DNA of 64,000 nucleotides from the human T2T-CHM13v2.0 reference genome, Homo sapiens: NCBI RefSeq assembly GCF_009914755.1, contig NC_060935.1. One strand, 5' to 3'. Both the position numbers and the translations under genes were made by a program. Under the pieces are notes generated by a model. That model was not told where the DNA came from, ran no database searches, and saw only the letters and a list, made by a program, of their open reading frames with translations. Positions 11,773 to 51,389 of the stretch are shown piece after piece (the first letter of the stretch is position 1; every line of letters starts with the position of its first letter).

Positions 11773-12264
11773 AGTCACCAAATACATTCTTAGTGCTATT
11801 AAAATAAGTGTGAACCCAGCACTGAGAATGCAATGGAGAAAAAAGTGGTTTAAATTCTTCCCTCATGGAGTGCACAGTCTCCTGGTGGAAGAAAAGCCTA
11901 AATGGATATTGCTTAATGCTATTGCAAATTTATATTTCTTTGTAAACATATTTAATTAATGTGTATTCCTTCCACAAGGATCAAGTCTGGTTTTGGTAGC
12001 ATTGTGTTCTTGTCCATCATGTAACAGAGTGTCTGGCTCACAGGAGTCACTAAAGAAAAAATAAAAGAACTATTTGTTAATACATGAAGAATAAAATGCT
12101 TCAAGTCAGATCGCTGATACAAATGAGACAGTTGTGATGGAGTTTGAGTAAGGTTTGTTTTCCTGACTCTTAAGCTTGTGTTCTTAAACACTGTAACATA
12201 AAATCTTAATTACCCAATTCAGACACTACATACTGAGATCCTGTGAAATTGACCTCACACTTAG

Positions 12265-12772
12265 TGTTGTGGGACAATCAGAGATAGGAGAGACCCAACA
12301 GAGTGAGTTCAGGAAAGGACTTTATTAAAAGGTGGTCACCTGGCTCAGTAGGACTAGTGTCCAGGAAAGTATGAGTCCTGGACAAAGAAAGGAGCCACCT
12401 TTTAAGCAGTCGGTGGTCAGGAGTTACGTGATGCAGAAAGCATACTTACAGAAGCGAGTACAAAGGCAGTTGATCAGTTTTTTACATTTATCTATACTAC
12501 ATGTTCTACATCCTTGGGAAACCATGTTTCTGTATCAACCTTGTAACTCTGCAGCTGTGCTAAGGAGGTGAAGCAGGAACTTGCTGAGCCTCAAGGAATG
12601 TGAAACTGGTGAGTACAGATAAGGCTGGCTGAGCACAGAAGGAAAAACAGGCAGTTAGTATTCTTCTCTAACTTAGACTACGGGGGGGATACACTACACT
12701 TAGCTTTTAAAGGAAAAAGTAAAAATTTCTCAGTTGTCTTTGTACTTGTAAAATGCATGAATTCCTTCTTCA
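12265..12772 (-). mobile_element. ERV solo LTR (about 508 bp), family unassigned
   Basis: TG...CA termini, minus-strand AATAAA about 55 nt from the end (tttatt 12321), flanks ttag/gtag as an imperfect 4-bp TSD. Confidence 0.55.
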
Positions 12773-14345
12773 GTAGTAGGAAGGGTAGTGGCACAGGTGA
12801 AGAGAAAGATACACATGTCCTTACAACTTCACCTTGTAAGAAGGTGCATTCCAGCAGACACACGTAAACAAATCTTAGTATTGTATGCCCCAAAGCCCTT
12901 TTTCATTTCTTTTTTTCAACAAGAACCCTTTATGGAGCCAAAGTACTTATATCACTGAGGTGTGAAGGTCATCACTTCCAACAAAAAGGCCCAGGAGACC
13001 TCCTAGGGTGAGAAAATAGGGAACTTTTCTTTACCAAGAGAGAATACTTAATTTAGTCAGTCAGTAGTATTGCATCTCTTACACTTCCAGTTTGTCTACC
13101 CAACGTAGTTGAAAACCTTCTCACAAATGTTTACAATTATTTACATGTATTCTTTTCTCTGAAGGACCAAAAGCTCCCTAGAGGAAAACATCTCCAAATT
13201 ACATCTTAAATTAAACAACTCATTGCCTTATCTCCTATTCAAAATAATTTATCATTAAATCTTCAAAATAATTATTGAGTATCTGCTATTCCACCAACAG
13301 TACTAGGCACTGAGTATATGTTGGCCCCCTCGGGGCTTACCATCTAGTTGAATGACAAACTATTGTATATATGCAGGAAGCAAACATAGTACCTTGAATA
13401 ATCTGGAAAGGAGAATTAATGAGACAGGATTTTCTGAGAAATTAGGTTTATACTTTATTTGAAATGAGACACAGGCATGGGGGGAATGAGAATGTTCCAG
13501 GCAGTGTAAAAGGTATGTGGGAAAACTGAGGCCAGATAAGAGGTTAAACTGATTAGTCTTTCTGGTTCTAGTTTTGTTCATATGTCCAACACACTTCTAA
13601 TCTGCAATTTATACTACTAACTTATAGTAAAAATATAATGATTTGTAGGTACTAGATACAAACCAAACAACTTAGCATAGTATGCACAGTCCTATACAAT
13701 TTGGTCACCTACTTCTTCATCCCCTACCATTCCCTCTTCTTACCCTATGCTGCAGCCACGCCTATAAAGACATAAGCGGTAGAGACATAAAGAAGTACAG
13801 GAATGCAAACCTTTTCACAAACACTTTTCCTTTTTCAAAACGTGGAGTCTTTTTTTCACGTTGCTCTTTTTTTTCTAGATTTTTCTGTTTCTTATTTAAT
13901 TCCTACTTAGCCTAGAAAAATTCTAAGTTTTTCAAGGTGAAATAAAAATTATTCTCTTCTTTGTGGAAGCTTGCCACACTTTCCCAGGAATGTTCTGTCA
14001 ATGACCAATTTGTAGTCTCTAGCAATCTTTTGAGAGGAACGTTATTATGGCACTTATTGGTTTATAGTCTGGCTGTGTCTTTACTTGCCTTTCTCCTGGC
14101 ACAAGTTTGTGAGCTTTCAGAGACAAAGGAACACATTTCATTTATTTCTCAGTCTTTCATCCTCATCACTACTTTCTTACAAAGTAAATCTGAACGTAAA
14201 TTTGTAACATAAATAAGCCTTATGGGCTTCCCACTATCTTAGCACAGATTAGGGATTTTCAGTGCTAGCTGGGTCTAACAGGTTTCTGTAAGGCTATAGC
14301 AGTCTCTTTAATGTTACCCAGACCCTATAATATTTTGTAATTTCA

Positions 14346-16979: not shown

Positions 16980-19900
16980 TTTGAGGGCAAAATCCTGACA
17001 TTCTCTAGTAATCAAGTCCCACCAATGAGAAAGTTTCAGGGTAAGGATGAAAATAGGTAGTAGGAATGTTTTGGTAAATGAAGTGATGATTTGATTCTTA
17101 CCAGGTCACTAAGAACTGTCAAAGATGTGGGGTCTTTCTGTGTCTTGCCCAGAGAATATTGACTGGGTCATTGGATGCCCTTGCAATTCAGGCTGCAAAT
17201 TACAAGAATCATTTCTGCACCCCATTGACTCAACATTTCCCAGAATTTAGGAATGTCAGACAAATATTTCCTTCAGCCCCTTAGCATATCCTTCCTAAAG
17301 TCTTTTGTCCTTGAATGTGCCTCCCCCTAAATCACTTAACATTGTCTTTCCTCGTCGGGAGGGCCAAAGCTGCAGGCCCAAGGAGCCTGAGGTTCTCCCC
17401 TAAAGTTAGAATTTCCAAAGACACCTGTTAAAACATGAATAAAAAACATAAATTTAGGCTAGTTTCAATGTTCTGTGGAGTTTGTTCTACTAATGCTACT
17501 AATGTTATTGTCTGATGCTGGGCAAATAAATTTACTAATGGATCAATCATTCAGTATGCTATGTTCCAGATATTAGACTTTTCACATTTCTGATTGTACA
17601 TAATACCTCTCTGCTTATAAAACAATCATGCAAGGTAGATATTATCATCTTCTTAAAAAAGATAGCTATAACAACAATAATAATAATATTATTTTAAAAC
17701 AAATAAAACTAGAGAGAGAGGTTGAGTTCCTCCAGGCCAGTCTAGATGTGACTGTACAAATTCAAATTCACGTCTACTTCACTTAAACCTTTCAACAGTC
17801 TCAAACTGTCTGCATTATACTAGATGCTAGAGATTGGTAAAATGTGGGCCGCTTGGAGCAGATTAGCTGGAAGTCCCTATTTTCTTCTAATGTTTCATGG
17901 TGACATGATTTAGGGCTCTGCAGATGCAGTGTTTTCCTATTTCTTTAAAACTGTCTTTACTCAGTATAACCCTTTTGGTTCTTCATACTATTTGCCGTTT
18001 ATTATGCTAATTGCCTCTCCATTTTTTATTTTCTTTTTACTAATTCAAGTGACATTTCTTCAGAAACCTCATTCAATCCTAATGTTCTGATTTTGATGAT
18101 TTCCAAATCTCTGCTCTTTTTTTTTTTCAGGGACAATCAATGGATGAGCAAGTGAATACATTATTGAATAATGATTTCTTTATTTATATAATCCACTCCT
18201 CTTTACCCCAAGCCTTAATAAAGCCTCCTCTAGTGCACAAGTTCACAACTTTTACTGTATAGTTTGCATACAGAAAAGATCAATGACTCCTTCAGATTAA
18301 TTAAATTAATTGTTATTTTCAGTCAGTCTTATTTAAAGTTAGGTAAGGTCAATCCAGAAAATAGTCTCTTTGTCATTGGTAACATAAATCAGAATACAGG
18401 GTAAGTTCTGGATTCTCCATTTAACTTTCGGCAATCTGAGGATAAATCTTGCTGAAGTTAATGTGACATTTCCCTTTCTTCCAGCCTGGATTGATTTATC
18501 TGTTCTCCAGTGACTCACAAATGCGTTATCCTAGAACTCTCAGTTGTCTCCTAGTTGAAACGCAGGTCCTCCGTAACTCTGGGTATTTGTCTGATCTATT
18601 TCTCCTGGATGTGGTAGAAGGATCAAAATGCTAAGTTTGGTTCCATATTACAAGAAGCTGAACACTTAAAGATGTGACTATACAGTACCTCTTAGGACAA
18701 GTTGCCAAAAATTTGTGGCACTTTGTACAATCAAACTAAGTTTTCTCATCTCCAGATAATTGTCTTTTCATCCATTTTCATGTATTGTAAATATTACAGT
18801 GATATGAGAGGTCTGACATGAGGGATGAATTCTGTGTATTTAAATGAAAATTTTTGCTTTTGTTTTCTTTCTTTTCTATAAATACCCATTCTAGTAGACA
18901 GCTTGGATTACCATGTTTCTTAGTTCCCATGGACTCAGAAAGTTTAAAGTTAAATCTCTCAACTCTGGAAATTAGACCAGGTTTGGTTTTCTGCTATTAT
19001 ATCTAGGACATAAAAGAGTCAAACCTATTTAAAAATCATAACTCTTCCCAGAAGAAGGAGGAAAAATGTGGATGATTTCTAACTTATGTTTATTTTAATA
19101 CTCTAAGAATGTTCCATGACTGTACGTTGTCTGTGGGAGTCAAAAGGAGTGATTCAACATGTTTGCTTTCCTCTACCTCCAAGTCAAGTGCTTTCCTTAA
19201 AGGCTCTTCTTATCCAAGAGAATATGAAGAACAATCTCATGGCGAAAGGTGACATCTCAAGCAAACATTCAGATCATCCCCAGGATGCTACCTGAGATGG
19301 GATCTTAAGATACCCTCACAGAGTTGCCCTACTTAGAGAAACCAAAGAGTATGAATCCCCTTGGTCACAGAGTCTAGGTTTCTGAATAATGATCTGAATT
19401 GAGAAATCTCTGTGTTCAGGAACGTTGCCTCTTTCCTTACTCTCCCTCATCTAGGGGCATGTTCTTGCCATCTATGGAAGTCCAGGCCTCCTCACTCCTT
19501 TCCTGCTTCTGACACCTTCTCATCTCTCATCCCACTGATTCCTCCTTTTGGTGGTAGCTGACAGAGTGGGGAACTCAGACTCATTGAGCAGGCCCCTTCC
19601 CTTCTAAATAGTGCAGAAGGGATTGTGTCCAGGCCCTGTGTTACTCACCCTGCTTGTTGTCAAAGCCTTCTTTACCTCTCCACATCCTGAAGGAGCCCAG
19701 GAAGGCTCTGGAACTGACGTCCCGTCTTTACACCCTTGGCTAGATGCCCTGGTGAGATGCTGTTCCCCAGGGATCCCTGGGGCCCAGGCCACCCAGAAGA
19801 TTCTCTGCTAACTTGTTCCTGGGCAATAGAAAATGACTGGGGTGTGTGTGTTGGGAAGGAGAGCTACATTTAAGCAACTGAGCTGTGGAGGAGACGAGAG

Positions 19901-20469
19901 AGCTAGAATCATCATGTCTCTCTCTGTGCTCAATACCTTGAGCTCAATGAGTCTGAGTTCCCCACTCTGTCAGTGTTTCCACTCTGCCACACCTGCAGGA
20001 AGCTTCACTGGGCACTTCAATCACTTCCTTTACTGTGCTCCTCAGTGACATCAGCTTTTCCATTTGGAGTCACAGAGACCACTTTGTAGCCTCTCTCAGT
20101 GACAGCCTTTTAGGTTGTCAGGGTCAGTGGTGTCTTCCCTCCACTCCATCTTAGCCCCCAGGGATGGACATCCAGGGGAAGCAGCCCCACTTCCTGTGTC
20201 TACTCCTCATGGACATTGTGGGAGCTCCATTTTCTTCAACAGAAGATATGAATCAAGCAATCTGAGGGCCTAGATGGGGAGAAAAGGGCCCTGAAACAGG
20301 GAGAGATGAATGTAGCCACCAGCTCTCTGTTTTTTTCTTTAGAGGGGCAGGGAGTCATTCAACCTAAGAATTTTTCCTTGCTGTCTTGCATATCCCAACA
20401 GGCCTCCCTTCATTCTTACAGTGTGACTGACCTAAATTGAAAATATGAAGAGGACCCATGGGCTAAAAG

Positions 20470-33674: not shown

Positions 33675-33700
33675 AGCAAAATTTAAAATAAAATTTTATT
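33675..33700 (-). terminator. OR51E2: Poly(A) signal of OR51E2 (3'UTR about 33675-35255)
   Basis: tttatt at 33695-33700 is AATAAA on the minus strand, followed by a GT-rich tract (gagtgttatgcc). Confidence 0.7.
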
Positions 33701-34395
33701 TTATCTTATACTCAAGTTCAGACAATAGCATGTGGTGTACATTCAAAATTTTTGACAGGTACAGAGCACATTAAAAAATGAAGACATGATCAAGGAGATG
33801 TAAGAGACAAATAGACAACAACATTCTCCCTGAATCTGGAAAAAAGCAAGCAATAAGATCACGAAAGGCAGCTGTAAAACAGGATTATTCTGCATGTGTT
33901 GCCCACAACTAGGGCAAGGTTATCTCTCATCACAAGTACAAAGCCATTGATGTTAGTGTGTAACAGAGAGAAAACAGAGGATTTGTACAGCTGAGGAAAT
34001 AAATGGCAGATGTTACACAGGAAGCAATATAACATGGTCATTAAGTAACTGTATTCAACCATCAAATTTAATTTTAAATCTTGGCACAGTGCCCACAAGC
34101 CGTGTGACTTTAGTCCCCTTGATAATATAAACTTCATTTCTCTCACTTATAATAAAGAGACACAAATGGTACCTACTCCATAAAGTTACGAAGAACACAT
34201 AAAACCTGTGAAGCACTTATAATAGTGCCAGAACATTGTGAGCACACATGAGATGTTCATTGGCATTATTATTAAGGGCTTATATAAATTCCCAGGTAAT
34301 GCATAATAACAGTAGAGACTGTGACAAGCCCTGGCTTCCATAAATTGTCAGCTTCATTTTCCCTGTTTCATTTGATATGTTATTCCATTTTATGC

Positions 34396-34545
34396 TTTGA
34401 GACAGGGTCTTGCTCTGTTGCCCAGGCTGGAGTGTAGTGGTACGATCGTGGATCACTGTAACCTCAAACTCCTGGACTCAAGCGATTCTCCCACCTCAGC
34501 TTTCCAGGCAGTGGGGGCTATAGGTGCACACCACCATGCGAAGCT
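34396..34545 (-). mobile_element. AluJ right arm / FRAM in the OR51E2 3'UTR
   Basis: ttgagacagggtcttgctctgttgcccaggctggagtg..caccaccatg. Confidence 0.85.
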
Positions 34546-34576
34546 ATCATATTCCCTATTTAAAAAGTTGTACACA

Positions 34577-34943
<367 letters not shown>

Positions 34944-35255
34944 TCATTAGTAATTTGAGCACATTTCCTCCAAGGCATATGCTATTTTTCAACTTGGTTT
35001 CAATCATGTATCTTTATTGTTTTTCTTAATGTTATAAGCATGTTTGGTTTTATTGTAGTCTTTAAATCATGTAATACTTCATTAGTATGTATTATTCCAC
35101 ATAATAGTCCTTTAGGTAGATGTACCATACTTTAGTTTACTATTCCAGCCAGAGAAAAGTACTGATGTGCTTATGGGCAACTGGAAATAAGCTAGTGTTA
35201 GAAATAATTATGTTTATCAAGCCAATAAAGATAAGGAGAAGTGTAGTGTTAAGGG

Positions 35256-36218
35256 TCACTTGCCTCCCACAGCCTGCAAGTCCTTGTCACAGCTGATCTT
35301 GAACATAGCCAGCACCCGTGTTCTGATCTGTTTGGTTTTGGCACCATAGATGATGGGATTGATGACAGGAGGCAGCAGCAGGTAGATGTCACCCATGACA
35401 ACACGCACAATGGGATGAAGGCTGTTTCCAAAGCGGTGTACAACTGAGAGGCCAATAAGTGGCACATAGAAGGCGAGTACCACACCAATGTGTGACACAC
35501 AGGTTCCAAAGGCCTTGGCCCGCTCTGACTTGGAAGGCAGTTGCAGAACCGTTCGTATTATCAGAAAATAGGACAAGGAGATGAACATTACGTCCACGCC
35601 CATGACCAGCAGAATGGCAGTAAGACCATATACCACATTGGGCAAAGTGTCTGCATAGGCCAACTTCATTACATCCTGGTGGACACAATAGGAGTGCGAG
35701 AGGACATTGGAGTGGCAGAAGGCCAGCCGCTTGATCAGCAGAGGCAGTGGGAAAAAAAAGAGGGATCCGCGGACCACAGCCACGATGCCAATCTGGGCTG
35801 TTACTGTATTGTTGAGCACTGCAGCATGGCGCAGTGGGTGGCAGATGGCCACATAACGGTCAAAGGCCATGGCCAGCAGGATGGTGGATTCAATGGCTGA
35901 GAGGGCATGAATAAAGAACATCTGGGTAAGACAGGCCTCAAAGCTAATCTCTCGGGAATCAAACCAGAAAAGGGCAAGGATCTTAGGCATGGTGGATGTG
36001 GATAAGGCCAGGTCAATGGCTGCAAGCATGCAGAGAAAGAGGTACATCGGAGCGTGCAGGCTGCGTTCCGTCCTTACGATGAAGACCACGATGCAGTTTC
36101 CAAACATTGCCACTACATACATGGAAAGGAGGGGGAAGCCAACCCAGAAATGGGCTTTCTCTAATCCTGGGATACCAATAAGCACAAAGGTGGCATGTGT
36201 GAAGTTGCAGGAACTCAT
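35256..36218 (-). CDS. OR51E2: Olfactory receptor 51E2 (PSGR, short-chain fatty acid receptor), 320 aa
   Basis: ATG at 36218-36216, MSSCNFTHATF...DKDLQAVGGK, 963 nt, all OR motifs intact; H104, F155, L158, H180, Q181, S258 and R262 fall at the expected positions. Confidence 0.98.
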   Translation of the reverse strand: MSSCNFTHATFVLIGIPGLEKAHFWVGFPLLSMYVVAMFGNCIVVFIVRTERSLHAPMYLFLCMLAAIDLALSTSTMPKILALFWFDSREISFEACLTQMFFIHALSAIESTILLAMAFDRYVAICHPLRHAAVLNNTVTAQIGIVAVVRGSLFFFPLPLLIKRLAFCHSNVLSHSYCVHQDVMKLAYADTLPNVVYGLTAILLVMGVDVMFISLSYFLIIRTVLQLPSKSERAKAFGTCVSHIGVVLAFYVPLIGLSVVHRFGNSLHPIVRVVMGDIYLLLPPVINPIIYGAKTKQIRTRVLAMFKISCDKDLQAVGGK

Positions 36219-36267
36219 AGCTGGAACTGAGGAGGGGTGACTGGAGAGGGTGAGGTCACACTGGCAG

Positions 36268-36290
36268 TCTGCAGGGACATAGAGCACAAT
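36268..36290 (-). promoter_or_regulatory. OR51E2: Splice acceptor of the OR51E2 coding exon (exon starts 36268)
   Basis: Minus strand attgtgctctatgtccctgcag|ACTGCCAG, 50 nt before the ATG. Confidence 0.85.
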
Positions 36291-38564
36291 CAGAGAATGC
36301 CCTGGAAACTTGAAACTGACATCCCACCCCTTTTGTCTTCTCCCACCCCCACTTAGGGTCTTTCATAAGCTCTGAGGCCCTCTTCCAAAGGCGGGACTGT
36401 GACAGATCAAATTCATTTATGCATCACTACTCTCAAGGTTTATTTAAATTTTTAAAAGGGAATCTTGGGAGAGCAATGCTTTTTCCAAAATGTAATTCCC
36501 TCAGATTCTTCCTACTGGTCCATACCTTCGTTGCCTGGATATTTGTTGGCCCTTTTTTTTCTGATAGGTGTTAAGAGATACACTTTTGGGAGCTCCTTCC
36601 AGATAAGGCTGCCTTTCTCATTTTACTTTCCCTGCTTCCCTCCCCCCACTTTCTTTCTTTCTATTATTCATTCATTCCAGAAGCATTACTAGCATAATAT
36701 ATGCATTTAATTCATGAGAAAGGGAGAGGCATGATCACAGAGGAATCTTCCTGTTTAGACTTGAAACATGAGTAGAAATTAGACAGAGTGGAATAATGGG
36801 TGTTCCAAGGCAGTGAGGATAGGAGATAACTTTGCAAATTTTCAGGATTCCCAGTCCTCAATTCTAAAGTCAGCCAGAGGAATAAGAAGCACAGCAATGA
36901 CACTTTTTTTTAAAGCTTAAAAGAATATAAATAAACAAAAACTAAGAAAAAAATGCCAAAAGTCAATCTCTTTCGGATTAAAGGAAACTCATCTGTGGTC
37001 ATAAAATCAAGGTAGTGGCTCCCTCCGATGACTTCTTCAGAGATGAAGGTGCTGGCAGGACACTGGTGAGTACCTCCGCACCTGAAAGCTTCTTCCAAGG
37101 CCATTTTAATTGCATCCAAGGATAGTTTGAGTTGAGTCCTTACTTTGGAGAAGTATTATTAATTTTACAATGATATTTTTAGAGCTTTGTCTTTCCTGAA
37201 ACTTGTGCCAACAAGTCATTCATCTCAGGGGAGACATTTCTTTTTTAGAAGCCCAGTGTTGCTTTGCCCCAACTCCCTACCCTCACCCAAACACCTGGGC
37301 TCTGACTTCATGAAACTTCTTCTCTGCTAGGTTGCCTAGGTGCCCTGGTCTTTAGAGCTAATTTTCTCTAAAAAGCCAAAGCCTTGGCTGCAAGGCCTAA
37401 CTTTTGGAAACAAATGATGCAGTGTCTTCATTGATCATCTGTTTCATTGAAACAGGTTAGCTTGCTTATATTGCACTCCCCCAACCCCAGAATTCTTCAC
37501 TCATCATCTGAGTTCTTACTGCAGCTGGGAGATGCCCTTCAGTTTGGCCTTAATGTAGAGGGGTTAGATACCAGTGATCTTAAAGTACAATATGATAAAA
37601 TTAGTACAAAGAGATTTGAACTGGATTCTCCCCATCTTGGATAAGCAAAGAAGGACAGATTTGGGGTTTGAAGGTTACAAAACCCATACTTCTGCCTGTA
37701 TTTTCTCTTCTCCACCTTCAGAACTTGTGCAGACAAAACAGCTAAGCTCCTTGACAAATATTAAATCCCATATTTGGCTCCCAGTTGCTATCAGAACATG
37801 AAAAGCCCTTTTCAGAAGCAGATGATTGCATCCTTTAGTGAGATACAAGATAGTTTGCATCTTGCATCCATCCATCCATTTCTGTATCCGTCATAGCTTG
37901 GGGAAGGGGATATAGAAATTTAAACAAATCATACTGAAATATATGGGACAGAACTAAGGAACCTTCCCTGAAGAGAGGTCAGATCACTAGACCACTGTGT
38001 TCCAGAGAAATGGGACCCAGGGTGAAGAAAAGAGCAGGCATGGAGGGAGAGCAAGGGGAACACAGGGACGTATATTTACTTTCTTAATGCCTTTTGCCCA
38101 TGCTACCACATGCAGTGCTGACAGATAACAAGAGTCTTTATTGGACCCAGAGCTGGGTACTTTCTTAAGCCCTCTCTCTGCAGAGCATATTTTCTGCCTT
38201 GCTGGTACCTGCACATGCTTACTCGAGTATAGGACTTTAGGCTATCATCTCATTTCCCAAAATACCTGTCCTGAAAGACCTCACGTCACCTTCCCATGTT
38301 GCCTGGCATCCTGCCTAAAGTAGACTCCCTGCTAAACCCAATTTCAGTTTCTCTTTGGGTCCGAATGTGACTGTTGCATTCATTCTCACTTGCCTTTCCT
38401 GATTGTTAGCTAAGACTCTGGGACATTTCTTCCCAGCCCATAAAGCTGTGGATGGGACACAAGGGCTTCTCCCTGCCCTGACTTGAAACAGTATGTGGGG
38501 TCTTCAAGGTCCCTTAGGATGGCAGGAGCTAAGGCTGCCTGACCCCAGGTAAGGGTGCACTCAC

Positions 38565-38760
38565 CTGAGAATGGTACAGTCCTACTTAGAAAGAGCAGCT
38601 GGAGCTGGTTTTGCTTTCTGGTTCAGGCCTTTTTAATAATGCCACTCAGAAAGCCCATGGGAACAGGCAGTGAGAGTATGAACTGAGGCCCCAGGGACTT
38701 GGCAGACAGAGGAAAAACATCTCCATGTCCACTTGTGTGCCATTCCCATGGGCTTCCCAC
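38565..38760 (-). promoter_or_regulatory. Candidate proximal OR51E2 promoter and short first exon
   Basis: Donor CAG|GTGAGT at 38565/38564, TATTAAAAA at 38638-38630, and three O/E (EBF)-like CCCNNGGG sites at 38653-38662, 38688-38697 and 38744-38753. Confidence 0.5.
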
Positions 38761-41559
38761 TGTTCCTGTCCAGGGAGAGCAACCTCAAAGCACCCACTGC
38801 CTCTTCCATCACTTCCACACTCACATATACAGGGCTCTCGACAATCTGCTCCCACTTCTCCAAGCTAAACCAAGCACACACAGTCAGCCACAGGATTAGT
38901 GTGTTTCTTCATGTGCCACTCTGCTAGACGCAGCAGACATCATATGTGACTAGGCATGGTCCTTGGGCTTTAGGAGTTTGCATCCTCTCTAAAAATACAA
39001 AAGTATAGTTCCATAATTCAAAATAGGGGCATGCAATTCTCCATATCTTTCCCTAACCTTTCTTCTGGTTAACAAAACAGCCCTTAATGTATCAAAGCTG
39101 CTCTTCATTGCTCCTAGATTACAGATAAAGCCCAGATGATATGACAGCTTTTTGTCCTAGGTCATATAGTTAATTAGTGATAATATTGGTTGGAGAACCA
39201 GGTATTCCGACTGTTTATTCACATTAAACAAATGTTTGTCAAAGGCTTACAATGTTATAAGCAAAATAGATAAAAAAAACTCACCCCAACTACCTTCTCC
39301 AGGATATTGAGGTATCCTCAGTACCTCATGATGCTTGATGGCTGTCTTCCAGTGACGTGTCCCCTACGTCATACCCAGCAGGGTTACCTTCATACTTTAT
39401 TAATATTTAACACTAACCTGTTCTATCTGCCATCCTTTCTAAGTATGCCTCACACATGAGTCTTGCTTTGTCATTGTCACTGTAATCTTTGAACACAGAA
39501 ACAGAAGTACTTCCATCAGCCATTAAGTATTTATTGGTCATCTATATCTGGCAATGGAGTTAATTAATTCATTCATTGTGTAATAAGCACATTCTCAAGG
39601 CTAGTTTTGTGCAGGCACTGTGCTGAGTTTAGGGTGCCAGAGGTGAATAAGACAAAGTCCTTGCCTTCAGGGTGGTCATACACACCTACCCAAACAAACC
39701 TGAAATGGTATGAAAGAGCAGTGAATGCCACAGATTTTTATAGGAACTTGAGAAGGGTATTTATTTAGTCATTGGGTGGGTCCAAAAAGAGGGTATTTCA
39801 GCAGGCAGAAAATCATGAAAGAAACAGAATTTTCTATAGAAGAATTACGAAGAGTTGTAGCTTGGCTGAAGCATAGAGTCAACCAAAAAGGAAAGAGAAA
39901 CTGGAGAGGTCAATGGATGTGAACTGATGATATGCTGTGAACTCAAGGACTTCATCCTGTAGGAATTGGGAGGTGAATAAATGGTTTTAAGCAGGGACAT
40001 CACAACTAGACATGTGTTTCAGATTGCTATTACAGAAGCTGTTGGGAGGGTGAATTTGAGGAGGACGAAGTGGAAGTGCTTATGAATTTAGTCATGTGAG
40101 ACAGGAACTTAAGATACATAGCATTTCCTCATCCTTCACATCCAATTATTCAACCGATCTTGTCTATTTTTCCTTCTAAAAATCTTTTGCATGTTTCCTC
40201 TTATTTCCATCTTCACCACCACTACCATGTTCACGTAGCTACAACAGTGGCCATGTGACTACTAGTGCTCTGGCTTTTAGGAAAGTCCCCAACTCATTGT
40301 GAGCTTATCCATCTTGGTCAGAGCATGACATTTGTTCTGCAACCCACCCAGTCTCGGTGTCTACATTACCAATTTCCTATAGATGGAAGCTTATAAGCTG
40401 CCAGGACTGTTGGACAGGAGGACTGTCCACAGGTTAGCATTTGTGAGGTGAGGTGGGGGACGAGAATCTGCAGAAGTTCTGTGAACATCTCAGTTGTCCT
40501 TGAGGTTGACATTCCCTTTTCTCCTTTCCATTTTTAGGACTTTGAGTATCTCCATCCTTTTCCTTCAGCTCTATTTGCTATCCTTTGTAGTAGTAGTGTA
40601 CAGAAACAAATAAACAAAAAATCTAGTCTGTAGGCCTGTATCATCTGAGCTTTTCCATCTTTCCACTTTGGACCTGCCTGTAGCTTCTCTGGATTTTTGT
40701 TTTTGCTTCATTGTGAGTTATAGATATGAAAAGATGATCTGCAGGGGTACGTATTAGGGAATAGAAGGGGAAAGAAATATGTAGAAATAAACTGGCAGTT
40801 TATTCAAAATATAAAACACCTCTTTAAAGTGGCCTCCTAATTTTTACTCTTACCTACATTCATTCACTAGACAAAGCAAGTTTTATGTTGGGAAGTGGAA
40901 ATAAAGCTTCACAAGATTAGGATCAGGGTATACTAGGTCATATGAAAAGGAGCAAACGTTTTATACTAAATGGCAGTACTTGGCACAGTATTCTCCAAAA
41001 TGTGAAATTTCATGAAAGTATATTTGTAGATATGAAGAACTTTCTGGTATAAAAGAACTTTGTTATCTTCTTGTGTGCCATCCGAATCCTTACACATCAA
41101 AGATAGTATTTCTTCATTAATTCAATGAAGAGTAAAAGTTACAATGGACCAGACACTATAGATAGAAATGTGGAAACAGCAGTGAACAGACCCAGTGCCT
41201 GGCCCCGAGAAGTGAGCTCAGAGTTTGTTGTGGGGAGAATGGTGACAAGAGAGTTTGGAAAGAGTTGTCTTGAGAGAGAAGAACAAGGTGCTGTAGGAGC
41301 ACCTGGAAAGGGCACCAGGCAGACCAGAGAGGTCAGGAAAAGTCCCTGAAGGAGAGCCCCTTCTATTCTAAGTCAGGAGAAGGAAGGGAGTGAGAATATT
41401 CTAGGTGGAGGTAGGCTTAAAAGGGTCAGGGGATTCTTTGCTGGGACTTAGGACATGCAGGTTGTTTGTTGTCTCTGGGGCATTGTACAGAGGGGAAGCA
41501 ATGAAGCTTAAGAGGTAAACAGAGCCAGATCATTAAGACATTTTACTATTTTTACTATG

Positions 41560-44264: not shown

Positions 44265-45194
44265 TTATGTTTCTTTGGAATGGAGAATTTTTATCACAGC
44301 TCTACGTATCTGTTTGGTTTTCACACTGTAGATGACAGGGTTCATCAAAGGGGAGGTCAGCAGGTAGGTGTTAGCAATCATAGTATGTACATAGGCTGGG
44401 GCTTGTTTCCCAAATCTGTGAACAATGGACAGACTGATCAATGGAATGTAATATATAGCAAAAGCCACAATGTGGGAGACACATGTACTGAAGGTTTCCT
44501 TCCTCTCTTCTGGGGAAGCAACGCTAAGGACAGTCCTAATGATCAAAACATAAGAAAGGAGGATGAGAAGTAAGTCTACACCAACAGTAGAGAACATGGC
44601 AGTCAGCCCAACTGCACTGTTGATTCTGGTGTCTGTGCATGAGAGCTTCATCACATCAGGGTGGTAGCAGTAGGAGTGGTGGAGTACTTGGCTGTGGCAG
44701 TAGGAAAGTCTTATAAGAAGTGCTACCATTGGTGTCAGCATTAGGAGCCCCCTGATGACACTTGCCACTCCAATTTGAGCTATTCTGGAGTCAGTTAAAA
44801 TCATGGCATACCTAAGGGGATTAGAGACGGCCACAAAACGATCAAAAGCCATGGCCAACAGCACTGAGGATTCCATGACAGTGAAGAATTTAATAAAGAA
44901 CATGTGGGACAAGCAGGCATTAAAGCTGATTTCCCTCACATTGAACCAGAATATACTCAGCATGGTGACCAGAGTGGATATGGACAGGCCGAGGTCAGTG
45001 GCGGACAGCATGGAGAGGAAATAGTACATTGGTTCGTGGAGGCTGGGCTGAGTGATGGTAGCGAAGAGGATCAGGCTGTTTCCCAAGAGAGCAGTTACAG
45101 AGAGGAAGCAGAAGGGAATGGAGATCCAGGTGTGGAAGGCTTCCAGCCCAGGAACACCAGTGAGCAGGAAAATGATGGAAGTGGAGGTGATATT
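44265..45194 (-). CDS. OR51C1P: Nested family 51 OR in the OR51E2 intron; main coding exon (309 codons plus stop) of a predicted 312-aa split-exon receptor; historically a pseudogene
   Basis: Uninterrupted 7TM frame (LHEPMY, MAFDRF, HSYCYHPD, HRFG, MNPVIYSVKTKQIR). There is no ATG before TM2; ACG at 45209-45207 sits at the expected start; in-frame acceptor ttgcag|AAT at 45194. The symbol comes from remembered gene order. Confidence 0.8.
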   Translation of the reverse strand, partial: NITSTSIIFLLTGVPGLEAFHTWISIPFCFLSVTALLGNSLILFATITQPSLHEPMYYFLSMLSATDLGLSISTLVTMLSIFWFNVREISFNACLSHMFFIKFFTVMESSVLLAMAFDRFVAVSNPLRYAMILTDSRIAQIGVASVIRGLLMLTPMVALLIRLSYCHSQVLHHSYCYHPDVMKLSCTDTRINSAVGLTAMFSTVGVDLLLILLSYVLIIRTVLSVASPEERKETFSTCVSHIVAFAIYYIPLISLSIVHRFGKQAPAYVHTMIANTYLLTSPLMNPVIYSVKTKQIRRAVIKILHSKET

Positions 45195-46529
45195 CTGCAA
45201 AGTTGACGTGATGAATTAAAAGTACAGAACGAGATGAGAGCTTAAACAAAAAAAAGCTACATTCATTTGTGTATTGATCGAATTAAAATAATTTTATTGT
45301 ACAGAAAACTGATGAGTATTTATATAATATGAAACTATGAATGGCTCATTTAAATTGATTAAAAAATGTCAGATTTCAACTGCTGTAGTGGGCACTTTGG
45401 TTTGTTTTTGAATTTGCCTTAGTGTACAATCTTTCTTCTCTAGGGCCCTTTGCTGGCAGCTATGTTTATATCATGTGACCACTCCTCTGATCGTTCTAGC
45501 CATAGATAACCAAACTAAGAATAAACACTTTACCCTGAGTTTGCCAATCATATTTCATTCTTTATGGCATGTTTAAATTGTGCTAAAGAGGTAGTGCATT
45601 ATTTTTCCTCTATGGTTGGCACCAGAGAAAAATACACTGGGGCTGTGGAACAGCAATATTACATTGGTCATAAGTGTGGAAAGCAGAGAAGCTTACAGAC
45701 AATTTGGGAAGCCAGAAAATATGAAGAAAGAGATCATTATAATACAAAGTAACACATAGGAAGTGACAAATAAATGGCTTCAGCATCTAACCATTAAAGA
45801 AACCCTTACAATATGATACCCGGCATCATATTTGGAAGAGATGGTTAGAACACAGACCTCCCACCAGGCTTAGGAAGACAGGAGGCTGCCCCCACCTGAT
45901 ATAATGTGCTGCCACGTTCCAACACAGCTCTCTCTTCAGTCTGCTGGAAGACTAGTTCTCCAGAACAGAATCTCTCTATTTTGTTAAGACATACTTCTTA
46001 GGAGATACCTAATTGAATGTTACTGTTTTGTTTCGGAGGGAAAAATATAACTTTATTGCAAACATCACATTTCTTTTTTCATAGAGTGGAGAATTGCAGA
46101 AAGGTAGATAGATGGGTATGGTTGAGTTGAAGACGGGGGTCTAGGGAAAAACAGAGATTAGGGTTGTGGCTGCAGAGGGCTCAATCAATGAGAGAGAGCC
46201 AGTTGCAGGGTAACTTCTTCAGAGGAAAAGAAAGGGTGCTGGGTGGCTGACAGTAAGTGTTGACAAAAGAGAGGATGGAGAGGAACCTCAACGTATCCAG
46301 ACTCACACATTCACCCTGATAAAGTGTCACCTCAAGGATCACCGGAAGAAGTCTTAGTGAAAAAAAAAGGGGGGGTGGGGGTGTGATTTAACTAAAATTA
46401 ACAGAAAACTAGATGAAAAACAAGAAATTATAGATTACACGATTTGGCCAAATAATGAAACTATAGCTTTAGATTCTGAAATTTACAGTAATGACAGTGT
46501 CCTCAGGCGAGTGATGAAAATATCTAAAA

Positions 46530-46780
46530 TGTATGATCAAACCTCTTAGAGAAATAAGAATTATAGTTAATGTATAGTATATTTCAAAAAAACTAAAAGA
46601 GAGAATTTTAAATGTTCACAGCACAAAGAAATGATAAATATTTGAGGTGATGGATATGATAATTAGCTTGATTTGGTCATTCCACAATGCATACATGTAT
46701 AACAACATCACATTTTACCCCACAAATATATACCATATTATTTGTCAACTAGAAATAAGATAAAATGATTTTGAAAAACC
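46530..46780 (+). mobile_element. L1MA 3' end fragment
   Basis: cacaaagaaatgataaatatttgaggtgatggatat..acatcacattttaccccacaaatatata. Confidence 0.75.
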
Positions 46781-46946
46781 AAAACACACTAAAAAGGAAT
46801 TACCAGAAAGAGAGCATTCAGTAGGTTTGTAGTATTTGGAGAAGGCTTTCTAGAAAAAGCAGTGCTTGAAAGATTTCTGTGTTTTATATAAGTTGAGACG
46901 AAGAATTCCCAGGCTTTCAGAACGGCATGTGTAAAAGTGTTGAGCA

Positions 46947-47249
46947 GGCTGGGCGCGGTGGCTCACGCCTGTAGTCCCAGCACTTTGGGAGGCCGAGGTG
47001 GGCGGATCACGAGGTCAGGAGATCGAGACCATCCTGGCTAACATGGTGAAACCTCGTCTCTACTAAAAATACAAAAAATTAGCCGGGCGTGGTGGCGGGC
47101 GCCTGTAGTTCCAGCTACTGGGGAGGCTGAGGCAGGAGAATGGAGTGAACCTGGAAGGCGGAGCTTCCAGGTGAACCGAGATGGCGCCATTGCACTCCAA
47201 CCTGGGCGACAGAGCGAGACTCCGTTTCAAAAAACAAACAAACAAACAA
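46947..47249 (+). mobile_element. AluY
   Basis: gagaccatcctggctaaca and gagaatgg; TSD aaaa(g/c)tgttgagca. Confidence 0.93.
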
Positions 47250-47977
47250 AAAACTGTTGAGCAACAGTGCACTTGTAACACTTCTCTTGATCTTGCTTTA
47301 CTATCTCAGGGACATTAACTGAGTATCTGGATCTTACATAGTGCTATTTTAGAAGCTAAAGGACAACACAAATAAAACCCCACTTAGAGAGTTTATAATC
47401 CAGTGAGGCAGAAAGAGCAGAACCGTTTTTCAATAATTTCAATATCTCATATACAGCGATGAATAATAAAAATGGTTATGAAAGTACAGAGGGGCTCCAT
47501 TTATGTCAATTAATTCTGGCTTTCATGATTTTTAGTTCCTACGCAATATCTGAGTTGTAATTTTTGTCATTGTGTTGTAGGACATTTTATGTAACCACTT
47601 AAAAAAATTAAATTGCTATTTGAATAATTTCTCTTTCATCCTAACTTCTTCATATCTCCCATTACCTCATTTCAACAATTTATTCATTGCCTATTTTCAT
47701 TCTTCTTGGTAGTTTTTTTCCTCCTTCTTGCCAAGAGATCATAAACAAAACAAAAGAAAACCATAGTGTATATATTTTGACCTGATCTGTGTTGGGCCTA
47801 GCAAAAAAAAAATGACTTCTCTCCTTTCCATCACTTTACAAGCATATCTTCCTGCATCCTTCCTACGTTCACGCTGGGCTCAGAGACAGAGGGTACCTTA
47901 TTCTTTTTCCTAGCCAATAACTCCACTTTAGCTCCTATCAACCAGAAACACTTAGTTCAGTTCAAACTGAACTAAAC

Positions 47978-48072
47978 TATACATATATATACGTGTATAT
48001 ATATATATACACACACATATATATATACACACACACATATATATACGTATATATATATACACACACACATAC

Positions 48073-48107
<35 letters not shown>

Positions 48108-48110
48108 TAT
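47978..48110. repeat. (TA)n/(CA)n compound microsatellite
   Basis: Seen directly; alternating purine-pyrimidine tract of about 130 bp. Confidence 0.95.
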
Positions 48111-51100
48111 GCAGGGAGCTGAGCTTGCTGTGTCAAGAGTCTAGGGACTCTTACTGAAAATAAAAAATGACTAATTTTAAATATCTACTACATGCCAGAC
48201 AGCGTCTATCAGCAGTAACAGAGACAAACAGATAAATGCTACTAGTTGTAGAGTGTATAAGGATAGGATGTATCTAATTGATAAGGCAGAAGAGATAATA
48301 GTGTGGAGTGGCAGATTTGGAGTGTGTGCATACATGAATGTGCCTGTGTGTGTCAAGAAGAACTAGTTCCAAGAATGTTAACAGAATGTATGCTTTATAA
48401 CTGTGTGAAGTTTTGATGGGTAGATGTGAGTTTATAAGGATGAAAAACAGGGGAAGTGTGCTTTTGCAGTGCCATTGATAAAATGAGGAGAGACATGAAT
48501 GAAAGAATAACATAAGCCAGTTTGTTGGATAACTACAAGAGAAGGGGTATATCGAAGTCTTAAATGTGAGGCTAGGTGCTGTGGGAAATGAAGCTAGAGA
48601 AAGCACCAGAGGTCAAATCATGAAAATCTTGAATTCCATGGACAGTGTAATGAACTTAAATTTTTGCAGAGCATCAAGAGCCAGACATTTCTAACATTTT
48701 ATTCACCTTTTATTGACCACTGGAAGCAAGGAGCTTTGCTTTTAATAAATAAATCATTTTCCATCTCTTCTCATTTAATGCCAACAAAATTCCTTTCCCT
48801 CTTTAGTATCTTGTTTAGTGCCATTGGTTGCTTTTTTGAAGTCTGCAATACTCAAGTTTTACTCTAACTCAACAATAAAAGCTTCCCACAGTTTTGTATA
48901 GATATTTCCAAACAATTCATTTCAACCAGGATATATTGAATAGTTTTCATAATTAGCCTTGTGCTTTGATAGTGAGGGATACAAGACATAAGCCCTGTTT
49001 CTCTCTCAATTTCCTGCTGTATCTTTTATAAGGATAAAAATTCCTTTGGAGAACAGTCTGCTTTTGTTTATTATTCCTTCACCTTCAGTAACAATCTGAA
49101 TTCTTTCCCTAATGACTCTGAAAATCCTCCAAATGATGTCACCCGTGATTTTCTACATGCCAAGTCCAAAAGTTTAATCTCAGATTTGTTTTTCTCTCCC
49201 TCATCTCAACTTTCAGCAATGTTTACCTCCTCCTCCTTGAAACTTTCTCCTTCATTAGCTTCAGTGATGGTTATTCTGTGAGGTTTTTTTTTTCCTGTTT
49301 GTTAAACAATGGTTTTGTTCTCTGCCTTATAAATTGTGGGATTCTAGAGGAGTCTGCTTTTCTCCCAAGAAGTACCTCTTCTTTTCTTGCTTTTCATATG
49401 CTCTCCTTGAGATATCTTGGTTATTCTCATGGCTTTAAATAGCACTTATATCCAGAAGACTCATAAATCTGCAATCTAATTATGGCATCTCCAGAGTTCT
49501 GTATTTTAAAAGTTAGCAGAATCTTTAACGCTGTGGCAAAGTTTCTGGTTTTAAGCGTAAAGGTAGTAATGAGACATGAAAATACAGTGAAGCAATCAAA
49601 CCTGTAATTTAGAAAAATAATTGACAGCATTTTGGAGAACAAAGCTCCTTGCTGCATGTGGTGAATAAAAAGTAAATAAAATACTGTGGCTACCCCTGAG
49701 GGACATCTCTACCCATCATCACTCAGTTACTTCAACTTCTATATGAGACAAATGGAACTCATTCTCTCGTCCCCTCCAAACCTGGCTCTTCCTCCTGCTT
49801 CATTTATCAGCAAACGACATCGAACTCTAGTAAATCATTGAATTAAAATTACTACCCACCACACACACACACATGTGTGCACACACATACCCTCCTCTTT
49901 CTCTCTCTCATCCCTTACATATAAAGATTAGTTTTTAACTGATTCTACTCCTGAAATGTAAAAGATGAGAACCTCGGGAGGTCTATATAAGAAGGCCAAG
50001 CAATTGTTAGTAGTGGGTATTTGCAGCTATTATTTCATTGCATTTTTCTTACATTGAAAAAATCTTAAGTGTTTATATTCAAGACAAGAGGGGGACTAAT
50101 GAATATCCTTAGAAGGAGGCACTAAATTTCCCCCAAGCTTCTCTTTTGTGCTGCCTTCACTCTAGAATCTTTCCGACCCATCCTCTCCAATCCATATATA
50201 CTTTCATTTTCTCTCTTGTGAAATAAGCTATATTCTCTCAACTAATTTTTCTGCCCACTCGGATTACAATGATGCTCCTCTTTCATTGCACTATTATAAG
50301 CTATAGCTTGTGGCTGTCTTAATCTGCTGAACTAGACCTTATAGTGTCATCAGTATTCTCCATGCTATTGTCAATGGTATGGCTATCATGTGTGACTGAC
50401 CTGGGTTCAGATTCTTGCTCAAACACTAACTAGTTTTGAGACCATGTACACCATTAATAAAAATATTACTCATAGAAATAGCTACCATTTACTGGACACG
50501 TGTTCTGTGAACATTATTGTCCTCAGTGCTTTATAAGCATTATTTTAATTCTTACTATATCATCATGTGACAAGTATTATTAGATTCACTTTAAATTCAT
50601 TTTTCTGGTAAAGACACTGAGTATCAGAAGTCTGAAACATATTTGAAATCACATACAACTGGTGAAAGTCAGAGCTGAATTTTTAACTCAGGTCTTTTTA
50701 ATTCCAAAGCTCGTGCTCTCAAAAACAATTGTTTTACTGAAATCTACAAGTAATATAAACTTTCTGTGACCCAGTTTCCTCATCTATAAGACAGGATATG
50801 CGCTGTGTCTAATACCAGTAGCTGGCAGGCAATGCGTTCGAAATTGGTAACTTTTCATTTTTAGTAATAGTTATTGGGCATAGAAATGAGATTCACTGAC
50901 TGTGATAAATATATCAGCACACTGATTAAACCATTTGACTAAAAACAAGTTATCTAACCTATATCAGGCAGAACGAAATACCCATTCTCTACGTATTTCC
51001 TGGGAATAAATAATTCTGAAATTCTACCGTCCTCCTCAGCCCACCATACCAACATCTAATCTAATTCTGCACATTGTGAGGAAATTACTCCCTGTGGGTG

Positions 51101-51158
51101 AGAAAGTCCAATTCATCTAGAGTCAAGCATTTTCACTGAACAAAACAGTTTTACTTAC

Positions 51159-51167
51159 AGAGCCCAT
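51159..51167 (-). CDS. OR51C1P: 9-nt coding micro-segment ATG GGC TCT (M-G-S): start of the nested OR and of the OR51E2 uORF
   Basis: Only ATG in exon 1, exactly three codons before a phase-0 donor, in frame with the 45194 acceptor. Confidence 0.65.
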
Positions 51168-51352
51168 ACAGCAGTTCGGCCTGTTCCTTTCAGGCTGACT
51201 CAGAAGGCTGAGGAGGCTTTAGATTCCAGGGGAGGGCCGAGCTTGCAAATATGAGGAGACTTATTCCAGCCTGACTGGAGACAGGCACAGAGCTGAAAGG
51301 CCAATTCCTGGTGGTGGTGCTAACTCACTGTGTCTTCAGGGTGTGGAGATTC
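51159..51352 (-). other. OR51E2: Distal first exon of OR51E2 (5'UTR), probably shared with the nested OR
   Basis: Matches my recollection of the OR51E2 mRNA 5' end (GAATCTCCACACCCTGAAG...GTATGGGCTCT). It ends at a strong donor TCT|GTAAGT (51158) and has a TATA box about 30 nt upstream. Confidence 0.85.
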
Positions 51353-51382
51353 CCAGAAGACTTCTTTTGCCTCATACAGTCC

Positions 51383-51389
51383 TTTTATA
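51383..51389 (-). promoter_or_regulatory. TATA box of the distal OR51E2/OR51C1 promoter
   Basis: ttttata on + reads TATAAAA on -, about 30 nt upstream of the inferred TSS. Confidence 0.7.

What the first reader, a model, noticed from the sequence alone, without database searches (positions are those of the whole stretch)
38510..38760. Candidate native olfactory promoter of OR51E2 inside the intron, suggesting promoter capture
Seen, 2.3 kb upstream of the coding exon in apparently repeat-free DNA: a consensus minus-strand donor CAG|GTGAGT (38565), a TATA-like TATTAAAAA (38638-38630), and three O/E (EBF)-like sites. Two of the sites form an exact 13-bp inverted pair (aagcccatgggaa 38651-38663 and ttcccatgggctt 38743-38755). 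The predicted exon of about 45 nt has no ATG. Established: O/E sites are typical of OR promoters. Inference: this is OR51E2's own promoter, and the distal exon at 51.2 kb originally belonged to the adjacent OR51C1-like gene. OR51E2 would use it by skipping that gene's damaged exon, which explains the nesting. Proximal transcripts would lack the uORF.
Basis: partly seen in the sequence, partly recalled or inferred. Interest (0 to 1): 0.72.

Follow-up and report, generated by a model that had tools for sequence, protein, structure and literature searches.

The report
Known olfactory first exon of OR51E2

Summary
The decisive result comes from print. The HAVANA/GENCODE gene models published with Barnes et al. 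2020 contain an OR51E2 transcript (ENST00000641638). Its first exon, hg38 chr11:4685058-4685092, maps to window 38565-38599, and it splices to the coding exon at 36268. That is exactly the predicted 38565>36268 junction. Olender et al. 2016 state that a proximal OR51E2 promoter is active in olfactory epithelium and that the distal one, an exon of OR51C1P, is active in prostate. Mouse Olfr78 has the same layout. In mouse olfactory mucosa the sharing of the distal exon is not seen. Four O/E-like sites fall within 250 bp, which 0 of 300 shuffles reach. The proximal 5'UTR has no ATG. The distal exon carries the OR51C1 start codon, which gives OR51E2 mRNA a 20-codon uORF. Two corrections apply. The OR51C1 exon is not damaged: it is an intact 312-aa split ORF that is conserved in mouse. 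The exon sharing predates the human-mouse split. The exact transcription start (38599 or further upstream) is not settled. RefSeq lacks this isoform. Verdict: already known, low interest.

The parts
38565..38599 (-). Proximal non-coding first exon of OR51E2 (35 nt as annotated; the 5' end is a minimum)
   Evidence: The HAVANA GTF gives OTTHUMT00000493219 / ENST00000641638 exon 1 at hg38 4685058-4685092. The offset 4646493 was taken from the shared coding exon. The exon has no ATG and is followed by GT.
38559..38567 (-). 5' splice site CAG|GTGAGT, last exon base 38565
   Evidence: It is the only exact match in the window. It lies in an 11-bp local hairpin, but the 76-nt fold is not unusual (z -0.46).
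36269..38564 (-). Intron of the proximal isoform, 2296 nt
   Evidence: The mouse counterpart is 2965 nt.
33678..36268 (-). OR51E2 coding exon. The acceptor is at 36268, the 5'UTR part is 50 nt, and the ATG is at 36218.
   Evidence: Hub table. The acceptor context is ...TGTCCCTGCAG|ACTGC. The mouse 5'UTR part is 51 nt.
38630..38638 (-). TATA-like TATTAAAAA, 31-39 nt upstream of the annotated 5' end. It also holds the only TAAT cores near the start.
   Evidence: It does not match TATAWAW or TAATKR.
38651..38663 (.). O/E (EBF)-like site, one arm of the exact 13-nt inverted pair. Its centre is 58 nt upstream of 38599.
38688..38697 (.). O/E-like site (one mismatch), centre 94 nt upstream of 38599
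38743..38755 (.). O/E-like site, second arm of the inverted pair. Its centre is 150 nt upstream of 38599.
38510..38519 (.). Fourth O/E-like site (one mismatch), in the intron 84 nt downstream of 38599
38698..38719 (-). Acceptor-like site (pyrimidine tract plus AAG). It would make a 133-nt exon 38697-38565, the same length as the internal-exon form of the mouse Olfr78 exon.
   Evidence: Seven sites of this quality occur in the 14,890-nt intron. It is not annotated as used in human.
39285..39363 (-). Cassette 5'UTR exon of ENST00000532598 (distal exon > this exon > coding exon)
   Evidence: hg38 4685778-4685856. AG and GT flanks were verified.
51159..51359 (-). Distal first exon shared by OR51E2 and OR51C1. 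The ATG at 51167-51165 is the OR51C1 start codon and a uATG for OR51E2.
   Evidence: Hub table. The uORF is 20 codons, and its TGA overlaps the OR51E2 ATG (ATGA).
51383..51389 (-). Canonical TATAAAA of the distal promoter, 30 nt upstream of 51359
   Evidence: The 500 bp upstream have GC 0.334 and 4 TAATKR sites.
44265..45194 (-). Second coding exon part of OR51C1, nested in the OR51E2 distal intron. The ORF is intact.

Best explanation
Window 38565-38599 (minus strand) is the proximal, non-coding first exon of OR51E2. The few hundred bases upstream of it form the gene's own olfactory-type promoter.

Shown or published:
- Transcripts that start here splice from 38565 to the coding exon at 36268.
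- Published RNA-seq of human olfactory mucosa assigns this isoform to olfactory tissue.
- The RefSeq isoform starts about 15 kb upstream, in the first coding exon of the nested neighbour OR51C1, and is the prostate and other non-olfactory form.

Inferred mechanism:
- In the olfactory neurons that choose OR51E2, EBF (O/E) dimers bind the cluster of three O/E-like sites at about -58, -94 and -150.
- Together with the class I OR enhancer machinery, they recruit the transcription apparatus to a start near 38600-38610, about 30 nt downstream of a weak TATA-like box.
- The resulting 5'UTR of about 85-95 nt has no upstream ATG. The distal isoform carries the OR51C1 start codon as a 20-codon uORF that ends on the OR51E2 ATG. 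Promoter choice may therefore also set how well the mRNA is translated.
For: - Exon and junction: the HAVANA GTF of Barnes et al. 2020 gives OR51E2 transcript -004 (ENST00000641638) with exon 1 at hg38 4685058-4685092 and exon 2 at 4680171-4682761. With the exon-2 offset this maps to window 38565-38599. The exon is followed by the GT of CAG|GTGAGT. The same offset gives correct AG and GT flanks for a second annotated exon at 39285-39363.
- Tissue assignment: Olender et al. 2016 describe a proximal promoter in olfactory epithelium and a distal one in prostate.
- Mouse: the Olfr78 model -004 has a first exon 2965 nt upstream of the coding exon. Distal transcripts share the first exon of Olfr560. 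The legend of Barnes Fig. 4d says this sharing is seen only in non-olfactory ESTs and mRNAs, not in olfactory mucosa RNA-seq.
- Exon geometry: an acceptor-like site in human would give a 133-nt exon, equal to the mouse internal-exon form.
- Motifs: 4 O/E-like sites lie in 250 bp, and 0 of 300 shuffles reach 4. Local GC is 0.52 within DNA of about 0.40 GC, with 1 CpG in 501 bp. This matches the review's description of OR promoters (PMC12547500 section 3.1, passage).
- uORF.
Against: - The transcription start is not mapped at nucleotide resolution. The model is tagged RNA_Seq_supported_partial, and Barnes et al. warn that models can be 5'-incomplete.
- The mouse first exon is 153 nt. By exon geometry this would put a human start near 38717, upstream of two of the three O/E sites and of the TATA-like box. 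It would also add a uATG at 38658 with an 11-codon uORF.
- No homeodomain site (TAATKR) and no TATAWAW match occur within 38400-39100.
- The distal promoter has a canonical TATA box, 4 TAATKR sites and GC 0.334, so by those criteria it looks more like a textbook OR promoter.
- All three upstream O/E sites carry one mismatch.
- I could not see Olender's Figure S18 or GTF, nor the read counts in Barnes Fig. 4b.
- No sequence alignment with another mammal was possible with these tools.
- EBF binding is untested.
Confidence: 0.88

Rival explanations
1. The exon is real, but the true start lies about 110 nt further upstream (near 38717, as the mouse model suggests). The TATA-like box and two of the three O/E-like sites would then be transcribed 5'UTR rather than promoter elements. 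Only the site at 38743-38755 would be upstream.
For: - The mouse Olfr78 first exon is 153 nt, and its internal form is 133 nt.
- Human has an acceptor-like site that gives exactly 133 nt, which suggests collinear exons.
- The human model is only partially supported, and the authors say human models are often 5'-incomplete.
Against: - The curators ended the human exon at 38599 although they had 13 aggregated samples (legend of Fig. 4b).
- A TATA-like box 31-39 nt upstream fits a start near 38600-38610.
- A start at 38717 has no TATA-like element in front of it.
Confidence: 0.3
2. The O/E cluster is mainly an intronic enhancer or a chance motif cluster. The 38565 junction would then be low-level cryptic initiation without a role of its own.
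For: - Every O/E site has a mismatch, there is no homeodomain site, and the TATA box is weak.
- The inverted 13-mer pair alone is not beyond chance (13 of 100 shuffles).
- The donor alone is not beyond chance.
Against: - Two independent studies of human olfactory tissue report the proximal isoform.
- In mouse olfactory mucosa the proximal form is the one seen.
- The cluster is beyond chance (0 of 300 shuffles).
- The acceptor position is conserved, 50 versus 51 nt before the ATG.
Confidence: 0.07
3. The direction of capture is the reverse. The distal exon and promoter were originally OR51E2's non-olfactory promoter. An OR51C1-like copy inserted into the long intron and later came to depend on that exon and its ATG.
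For: - The distal exon is used by OR51E2/Olfr78 in non-olfactory tissues in both human and mouse.
- No O/E-like site with up to 1 mismatch lies in the 500 bp upstream of 51359.
Against: - The OR51C1/Olfr560 start codon and first 3 residues lie in the distal exon in both species, while for OR51E2 the exon is non-coding.
- The distal promoter is AT-rich with a TATA box and 4 homeodomain sites, as OR promoters typically are.
- Both published accounts call it the OR51C1P exon.
Confidence: 0.2

Closest known systems
GENCODE transcript ENST00000641638 (HAVANA OTTHUMT00000493219, OR51E2-004), from Barnes et al. 2020, BMC Genomics 21:196
   Same: It is the same object. The first exon ends at the same donor (window 38565), is spliced to the same acceptor (36268), and is tagged alternative_5_UTR.
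   Different: The annotation gives only exon coordinates and a 5' end at 38599. It says nothing about the O/E cluster, the TATA-like box or the uORF contrast. RefSeq, as shown in the hub's table, lacks the isoform.
Tissue-specific promoters of OR51E2, from Olender et al. 2016, BMC Genomics 17:619
   Same: It makes the same biological claim. A proximal promoter acts in olfactory epithelium. In prostate a distal exon of the neighbouring OR51C1P is used, giving a chimeric transcript.
   Different: Its coordinates (Figure S18 and the GTF) could not be read here. That its proximal exon is the one at 38565 is therefore inferred through Barnes et al., who re-used those 4 samples.
Mouse Olfr78 (Or51e2) gene models
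   Same: - A proximal first exon lies 2965 nt upstream of the coding exon, against 2296 nt in human.
- The 5'UTR part of the coding exon is 51 nt, against 50 nt in human.
- A distal exon is shared with Olfr560, the orthologue of OR51C1.
   Different: - In mouse the proximal exon is 153 nt as a first exon. It is also used as a 133-nt internal exon of distal transcripts.
- In human it is annotated only as a 35-nt first exon.
- Sequence-level orthology was not testable here.
Generic odorant-receptor promoter (O/E plus homeodomain sites, AT-rich, TATA), as summarised in PMC12547500 from Clowney 2011 and Plessy 2012
   Same: O/E motifs lie within a few hundred bp upstream of the start. There is a GC peak at the start within AT-rich DNA. 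A short non-coding first exon is spliced to a single coding exon.
   Different: There is no consensus homeodomain site and no consensus TATA box. It has several O/E sites rather than one, two of them forming an exact inverted 13-mer pair.
Weng et al. [quoted passage not shown]
   Same: [quoted passage not shown]
   Different: The paper is not held. I do not know whether its second promoter is the one at 38.6 kb.

Membership tests
Annotated alternative first exon of OR51E2 (ENST00000641638) | The exon's 3' end coincides with a GT donor and maps to the published hg38 coordinates | tested here: met
   hg38 4685058 minus the offset 4646493 gives 38565, followed by GTGAGT. The offset was cross-checked on exon 39285-39363.
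Annotated alternative first exon of OR51E2 (ENST00000641638) | RNA evidence for the 38565>36268 junction | not testable with these tools
   This rests on the published tag RNA_Seq_supported_partial and on the Fig. 4b legend. Read counts are in a figure that is not held.
Odorant-receptor promoter (O/E + HD type) | O/E (EBF) motif within a few hundred bp upstream of the start | tested here: met
   Three one-mismatch sites lie at -58, -94 and -150 from 38599. For the cluster, 0 of 300 shuffles reach 4 in 250 bp.
Odorant-receptor promoter (O/E + HD type) | Homeodomain (Lhx2-type) site, using TAATKR as defined in the legend of Iwata 2017 Fig. 6 | tested here: not met
   There are 0 TAATKR matches in 38400-39100, against a window density of 3.2 per kb. 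Only two TAAT cores occur, inside the TATA-like box.
Odorant-receptor promoter (O/E + HD type) | TATA/TBP motif about 30 nt upstream of the start | tested here: inconclusive
   TATTAAAAA lies 31-39 nt upstream of 38599, but there is no TATAWAW match.
Odorant-receptor promoter (O/E + HD type) | AT-rich, CpG-poor surroundings with a GC peak at the start | tested here: met
   GC is 0.52 over 38400-38900 against 0.34-0.42 in the flanks and 0.397 for the window. There is 1 CpG in 501 bp.
Odorant-receptor promoter (O/E + HD type) | Activity in olfactory sensory neurons; EBF occupancy | not testable with these tools
   Only published bulk RNA-seq statements on olfactory mucosa are available.
OR loci sharing 5' exons with a neighbour (Barnes 2020 Table 1: 7 human, 7 mouse) | A splice junction joins the first exon of the upstream OR gene to the coding exon of the downstream one | tested here: met
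   The RefSeq and HAVANA models use 51159>36268, and OR51C1 uses 51159>45194. The split ORF reads through intact.

The most novel reading that the evidence does not exclude
Promoter choice at OR51E2 may work as a two-level switch that has not been described.

- The proximal promoter would be an EBF-only design: three O/E sites, two of them an exact inverted 13-mer pair, with no homeodomain or TATA consensus. It would give a uATG-free leader in olfactory neurons.
- The distal OR51C1 promoter would give a leader whose 20-codon uORF stops on the OR51E2 start codon (ATGA). This would damp or condition translation in prostate, gut and other non-olfactory cells.
- The unusual promoter could also explain why mouse Olfr78 was the only class I OR not pushed down by a competing strong OR transgene (preprint 10.1101/2022.05.05.489571, passages).
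Probability: 0.15. Interest if true: 0.4.

Novelty: already known. Interest (0 to 1): 0.15.

Why it matters
OR51E2 (PSGR) is studied as a prostate-cancer marker and as a short-chain fatty-acid sensor in the gut. Knowing that the olfactory and non-olfactory transcripts start at different promoters matters for three things: reporter design, reading eQTL and GWAS signals at the locus, and isoform-specific assays.

All of this is already in GENCODE and in two papers. The practical value of this report is small:
- It shows that RefSeq lacks the isoform.
- It lists the candidate EBF sites.
- It points out the uORF contrast.
- It flags that the exact human start site is still open.

Tried and rejected
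- Repeat or transposon origin: there is no extended inverted or direct repeat around the 13-mer pair, and the stretch is single copy in its own genome. Rejected.
- Structured RNA or hidden coding exon: no Rfam match was found in 37500-40000. Stop-to-stop ORFs are short and featureless, 6 of 70-91 aa. Rejected.
- Hairpin masking the donor: an 11-bp local stem exists, but the 76-nt fold has z -0.46, and 63 of 200 shuffles fold as well. Not pursued.
- GWAS link: the gut-microbiome lead variant rs10836441 (hg19 11:4689742) maps to about window 22.0 kb, not to this promoter.
- Flegel 2013 (passages): it says only that the known 5'UTRs were joined to the ORF exons in 16 non-olfactory tissues. It gives no information on the proximal exon.
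- Not readable: Olender 2016 Figure S18 (pptx) and the transcript GTF, Barnes supplementary PDF figures, and Weng 2005. These may hold start-site detail that bears on the open question of the transcription start.
- Earlier findings of this scan were not open to the session.
- No mammalian genome other than the window's own could be searched, so sequence conservation of the O/E sites was not tested.

Full report
**Observation**

Reading 38300-39000 on both strands confirms each element at the stated place.

- The donor CAG|GTGAGT lies on the minus strand, with the last exon base at 38565.
- TATTAAAAA lies at 38638-38630.
- The exact 13-nt inverted pair lies at 38651-38663 and 38743-38755, with 79 nt between the arms.
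- The donor is the only CAGGTGAGT in the window. One is expected by chance: the shuffle mean is 0.83, and 59 of 100 shuffles have at least one.
- O/E-like sites (TCCCNNGGGA, up to 1 mismatch) number 23 in the window against about 19 expected. Four of the 23 lie at 38510, 38653, 38688 and 38744.
- In my own shuffle test, 0 of 300 dinucleotide shuffles had 4 such sites in any 250 bp, and 16 of 300 had 3.
- The inverted 13-mer pair by itself is weaker evidence. Eight exact inverted pairs of 13 nt or more with a gap of 100 or less exist in the window, and 6 of them are in TA-rich low-complexity DNA. Thirteen of 100 shuffles have at least one.
- The stretch 38400-38900 is single copy in its genome. 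It has no Rfam match and no notable ORF.

**What it is**

The answer came from the literature.

- Olender et al. [quoted passage not shown] They add that in prostate the coding exon is spliced to a remote 5' exon of the neighbouring pseudogene OR51C1P.
- Barnes et al. 2020 (PMC7055050) devote Fig. 4 to this locus (legend read). They also deposited the HAVANA gene models as a text file.
- In that file (supplementary file 4, part 61; first seen), OR51E2 transcript -004 (OTTHUMT00000493219, listed as ENST00000641638 in supplementary file 1) has exon 1 at hg38 chr11:4685058-4685092 and exon 2 at 4680171-4682761. It is tagged alternative_5_UTR and RNA_Seq_supported_partial.
- Exon 2 is the window's 33678-36268, so the offset is 4646493 and exon 1 maps to 38565-38599.
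- That interval is 35 nt, has no ATG and is followed by GTGAGT.
- The same offset places a second annotated exon (ENST00000532598 exon 2) at 39285-39363 with correct AG and GT flanks. An offset one base different fails for it.
- The distal exon needs an offset of 4646494. The one-base difference between the assemblies lies in the OR51C1 intron, which is 5965 nt in Barnes supplementary file 3 and 5964 nt here. It does not affect the mapping.

**Mouse**

- The mouse GTF (supplementary file 5, part 223) gives Olfr78 transcript -004 a first exon at mm10 chr7:102746018-102746170. It is spliced to the coding exon at 102743052.
- The intron is 2965 nt, against 2296 nt in human. The untranslated part of the coding exon is 51 nt, against 50 nt in human.
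- Other Olfr78 transcripts start at about 102759395 in the first exon of Olfr560.
- Barnes supplementary file 3 pairs Olfr560 with OR51C1P. Each is 312 aa, with 3 residues encoded in the first exon.
- The legend of Fig. [quoted passage not shown]
A junction at 38565 exists, and the mouse orthologue has a proximal first exon as well as the distal one.
- On geometry alone, the human gene strand has a pyrimidine tract plus AAG ending at 38698. This would make a 133-nt exon, exactly the length of the mouse exon when it is used internally.
- Only 7 sites of that quality occur in the 14,890-nt intron. I take this as circumstantial evidence that the exons are orthologous. No alignment was possible.

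**Corrections to the interpretation**

- The OR51C1 exon is not damaged. Positions 51167-51159 joined to 45194-44265 read as 312 codons plus a stop.
- The split coding structure is conserved in mouse.
- A Barnes supplementary table whose header I did not read shows non-zero values for OR51C1P in 11 of 12 columns and for OR51E2 in 12 of 12.
- Because the sharing is annotated in both species, any capture predates their divergence.
- Which gene first owned the distal exon remains an inference.

**How it probably works**

According to a 2025 review (PMC12547500, passages), OR promoters have the following traits:
- They are AT-rich, with a GC peak at the start.
- They usually have an O/E motif within a few hundred bp upstream.
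- They often have homeodomain, MEF2A and TBP motifs.

The proximal promoter compares as follows:
- It shows a GC peak (0.52 against about 0.40) and 1 CpG in 501 bp.
- It has O/E-like sites centred 58, 94 and 150 nt upstream of 38599.
- It has no TAATKR homeodomain site in 38400-39100 and no TATAWAW match. It has only the TATA-like TATTAAAAA, 31-39 nt upstream of the annotated end.

The distal promoter differs. It has a canonical TATAAAA 30 nt upstream of 51359, four TAATKR sites and GC 0.334 in its 500 upstream bases. It has no O/E-like site upstream at this threshold. Motifs alone would therefore not have told which promoter is the olfactory one. The published expression data do that.

As a loose positive control, a perfect O/E site lies about 94 nt upstream of the upstream-most GENCODE start of OR51E1, just outside the window. 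That mapping uses the hg38 offset and is approximate.

**Open point**

- The human 5' end at 38599 is a minimum. The authors warn that models may be 5'-incomplete.
- The mouse first exon is 153 nt. By collinearity this corresponds to a human start near 38717.
- With that start, the TATA-like box and two O/E sites would be transcribed, and a uATG at 38658 would open an 11-codon uORF.
- I give this rival about 0.3. The curated human end, together with the TATA-like box, favours 38600-38610.

**uORF**

- The distal exon has one ATG (51167-51165), which is the OR51C1 start codon.
- In OR51E2 mRNA it opens a 20-codon uORF, out of frame, whose TGA overlaps the OR51E2 ATG (ATGA).
- Its context is TGCTGTATGG. 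The context of the main start is CCAGCTATGA.
- The proximal leader has no ATG for any start up to 38620.
- Barnes et al. note in general that uORFs are common in OR genes and can lower translation. I found no statement about this particular contrast in the passages I read. I did not search for it specifically.

**Verdict**

The remaining open items are the exact start site, whether the O/E sites are functional, and a possible translational difference between the isoforms. Weng et al. 2005, 'two distinct promoters', could not be read. Only its title and one citing sentence were seen.

Noticed in passing
window 19766-19783: An 18-bp perfect palindrome, CCCCAGGGATCCCTGGGG, is made of two abutting O/E-like sites, one of which is the window's only perfect TCCCNNGGGA match. 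It lies about 330 bp upstream of the annotated start of lncRNA LOC105376528 (20098). A further O/E-like site is at 20155. It could be an EBF-bound element or a relic OR promoter.
   Followed up: no
window about 22.0 kb (hg19 chr11:4689742, mapped by an approximate offset): The lead variant rs10836441 for gut microbial richness is reported as an eQTL for OR51E1 and OR51E2 (PMC12987725). It falls in the first intron of the lncRNA between the two genes, not in either OR51E2 promoter.
   Followed up: partly
window 38698-38719 (minus strand): An unused acceptor-like site would give a 133-nt exon, identical in length to the mouse Olfr78 internal exon. Its -3 base is A (AAG), which may be why human distal transcripts skip it.
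   Followed up: partly
window 36216-36219 and 51165-51167: The stop codon of the distal-isoform uORF overlaps the OR51E2 start codon (ATGA). This is a termination-reinitiation type arrangement.
   Followed up: partly
window 39285-39363 (minus strand): A GENCODE cassette 5'UTR exon (ENST00000532598) is absent from the RefSeq table. Its AG and GT flanks were verified. It contains an ATG followed three codons later by a stop.
   Followed up: partly
L002, window coordinates -3171 to -3162: A perfect O/E site, TCCCTGGGGA, lies about 94 nt upstream of the upstream-most GENCODE start of OR51E1 (hg38 4643420, approximate mapping).
   Followed up: no
window 11633-11673: This is the only other exact inverted pair in complex sequence. 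It has 15-nt arms (TTAGCCTTATGAGAA) with an 11-nt loop, about 600 bp before the RefSeq cis-regulatory region at 12258-12803.
   Followed up: no
window 45195-51158: The OR51C1 intron is one base shorter in this assembly (5964 nt) than in hg38 (5965 nt in Barnes supplementary file 3).
   Followed up: no
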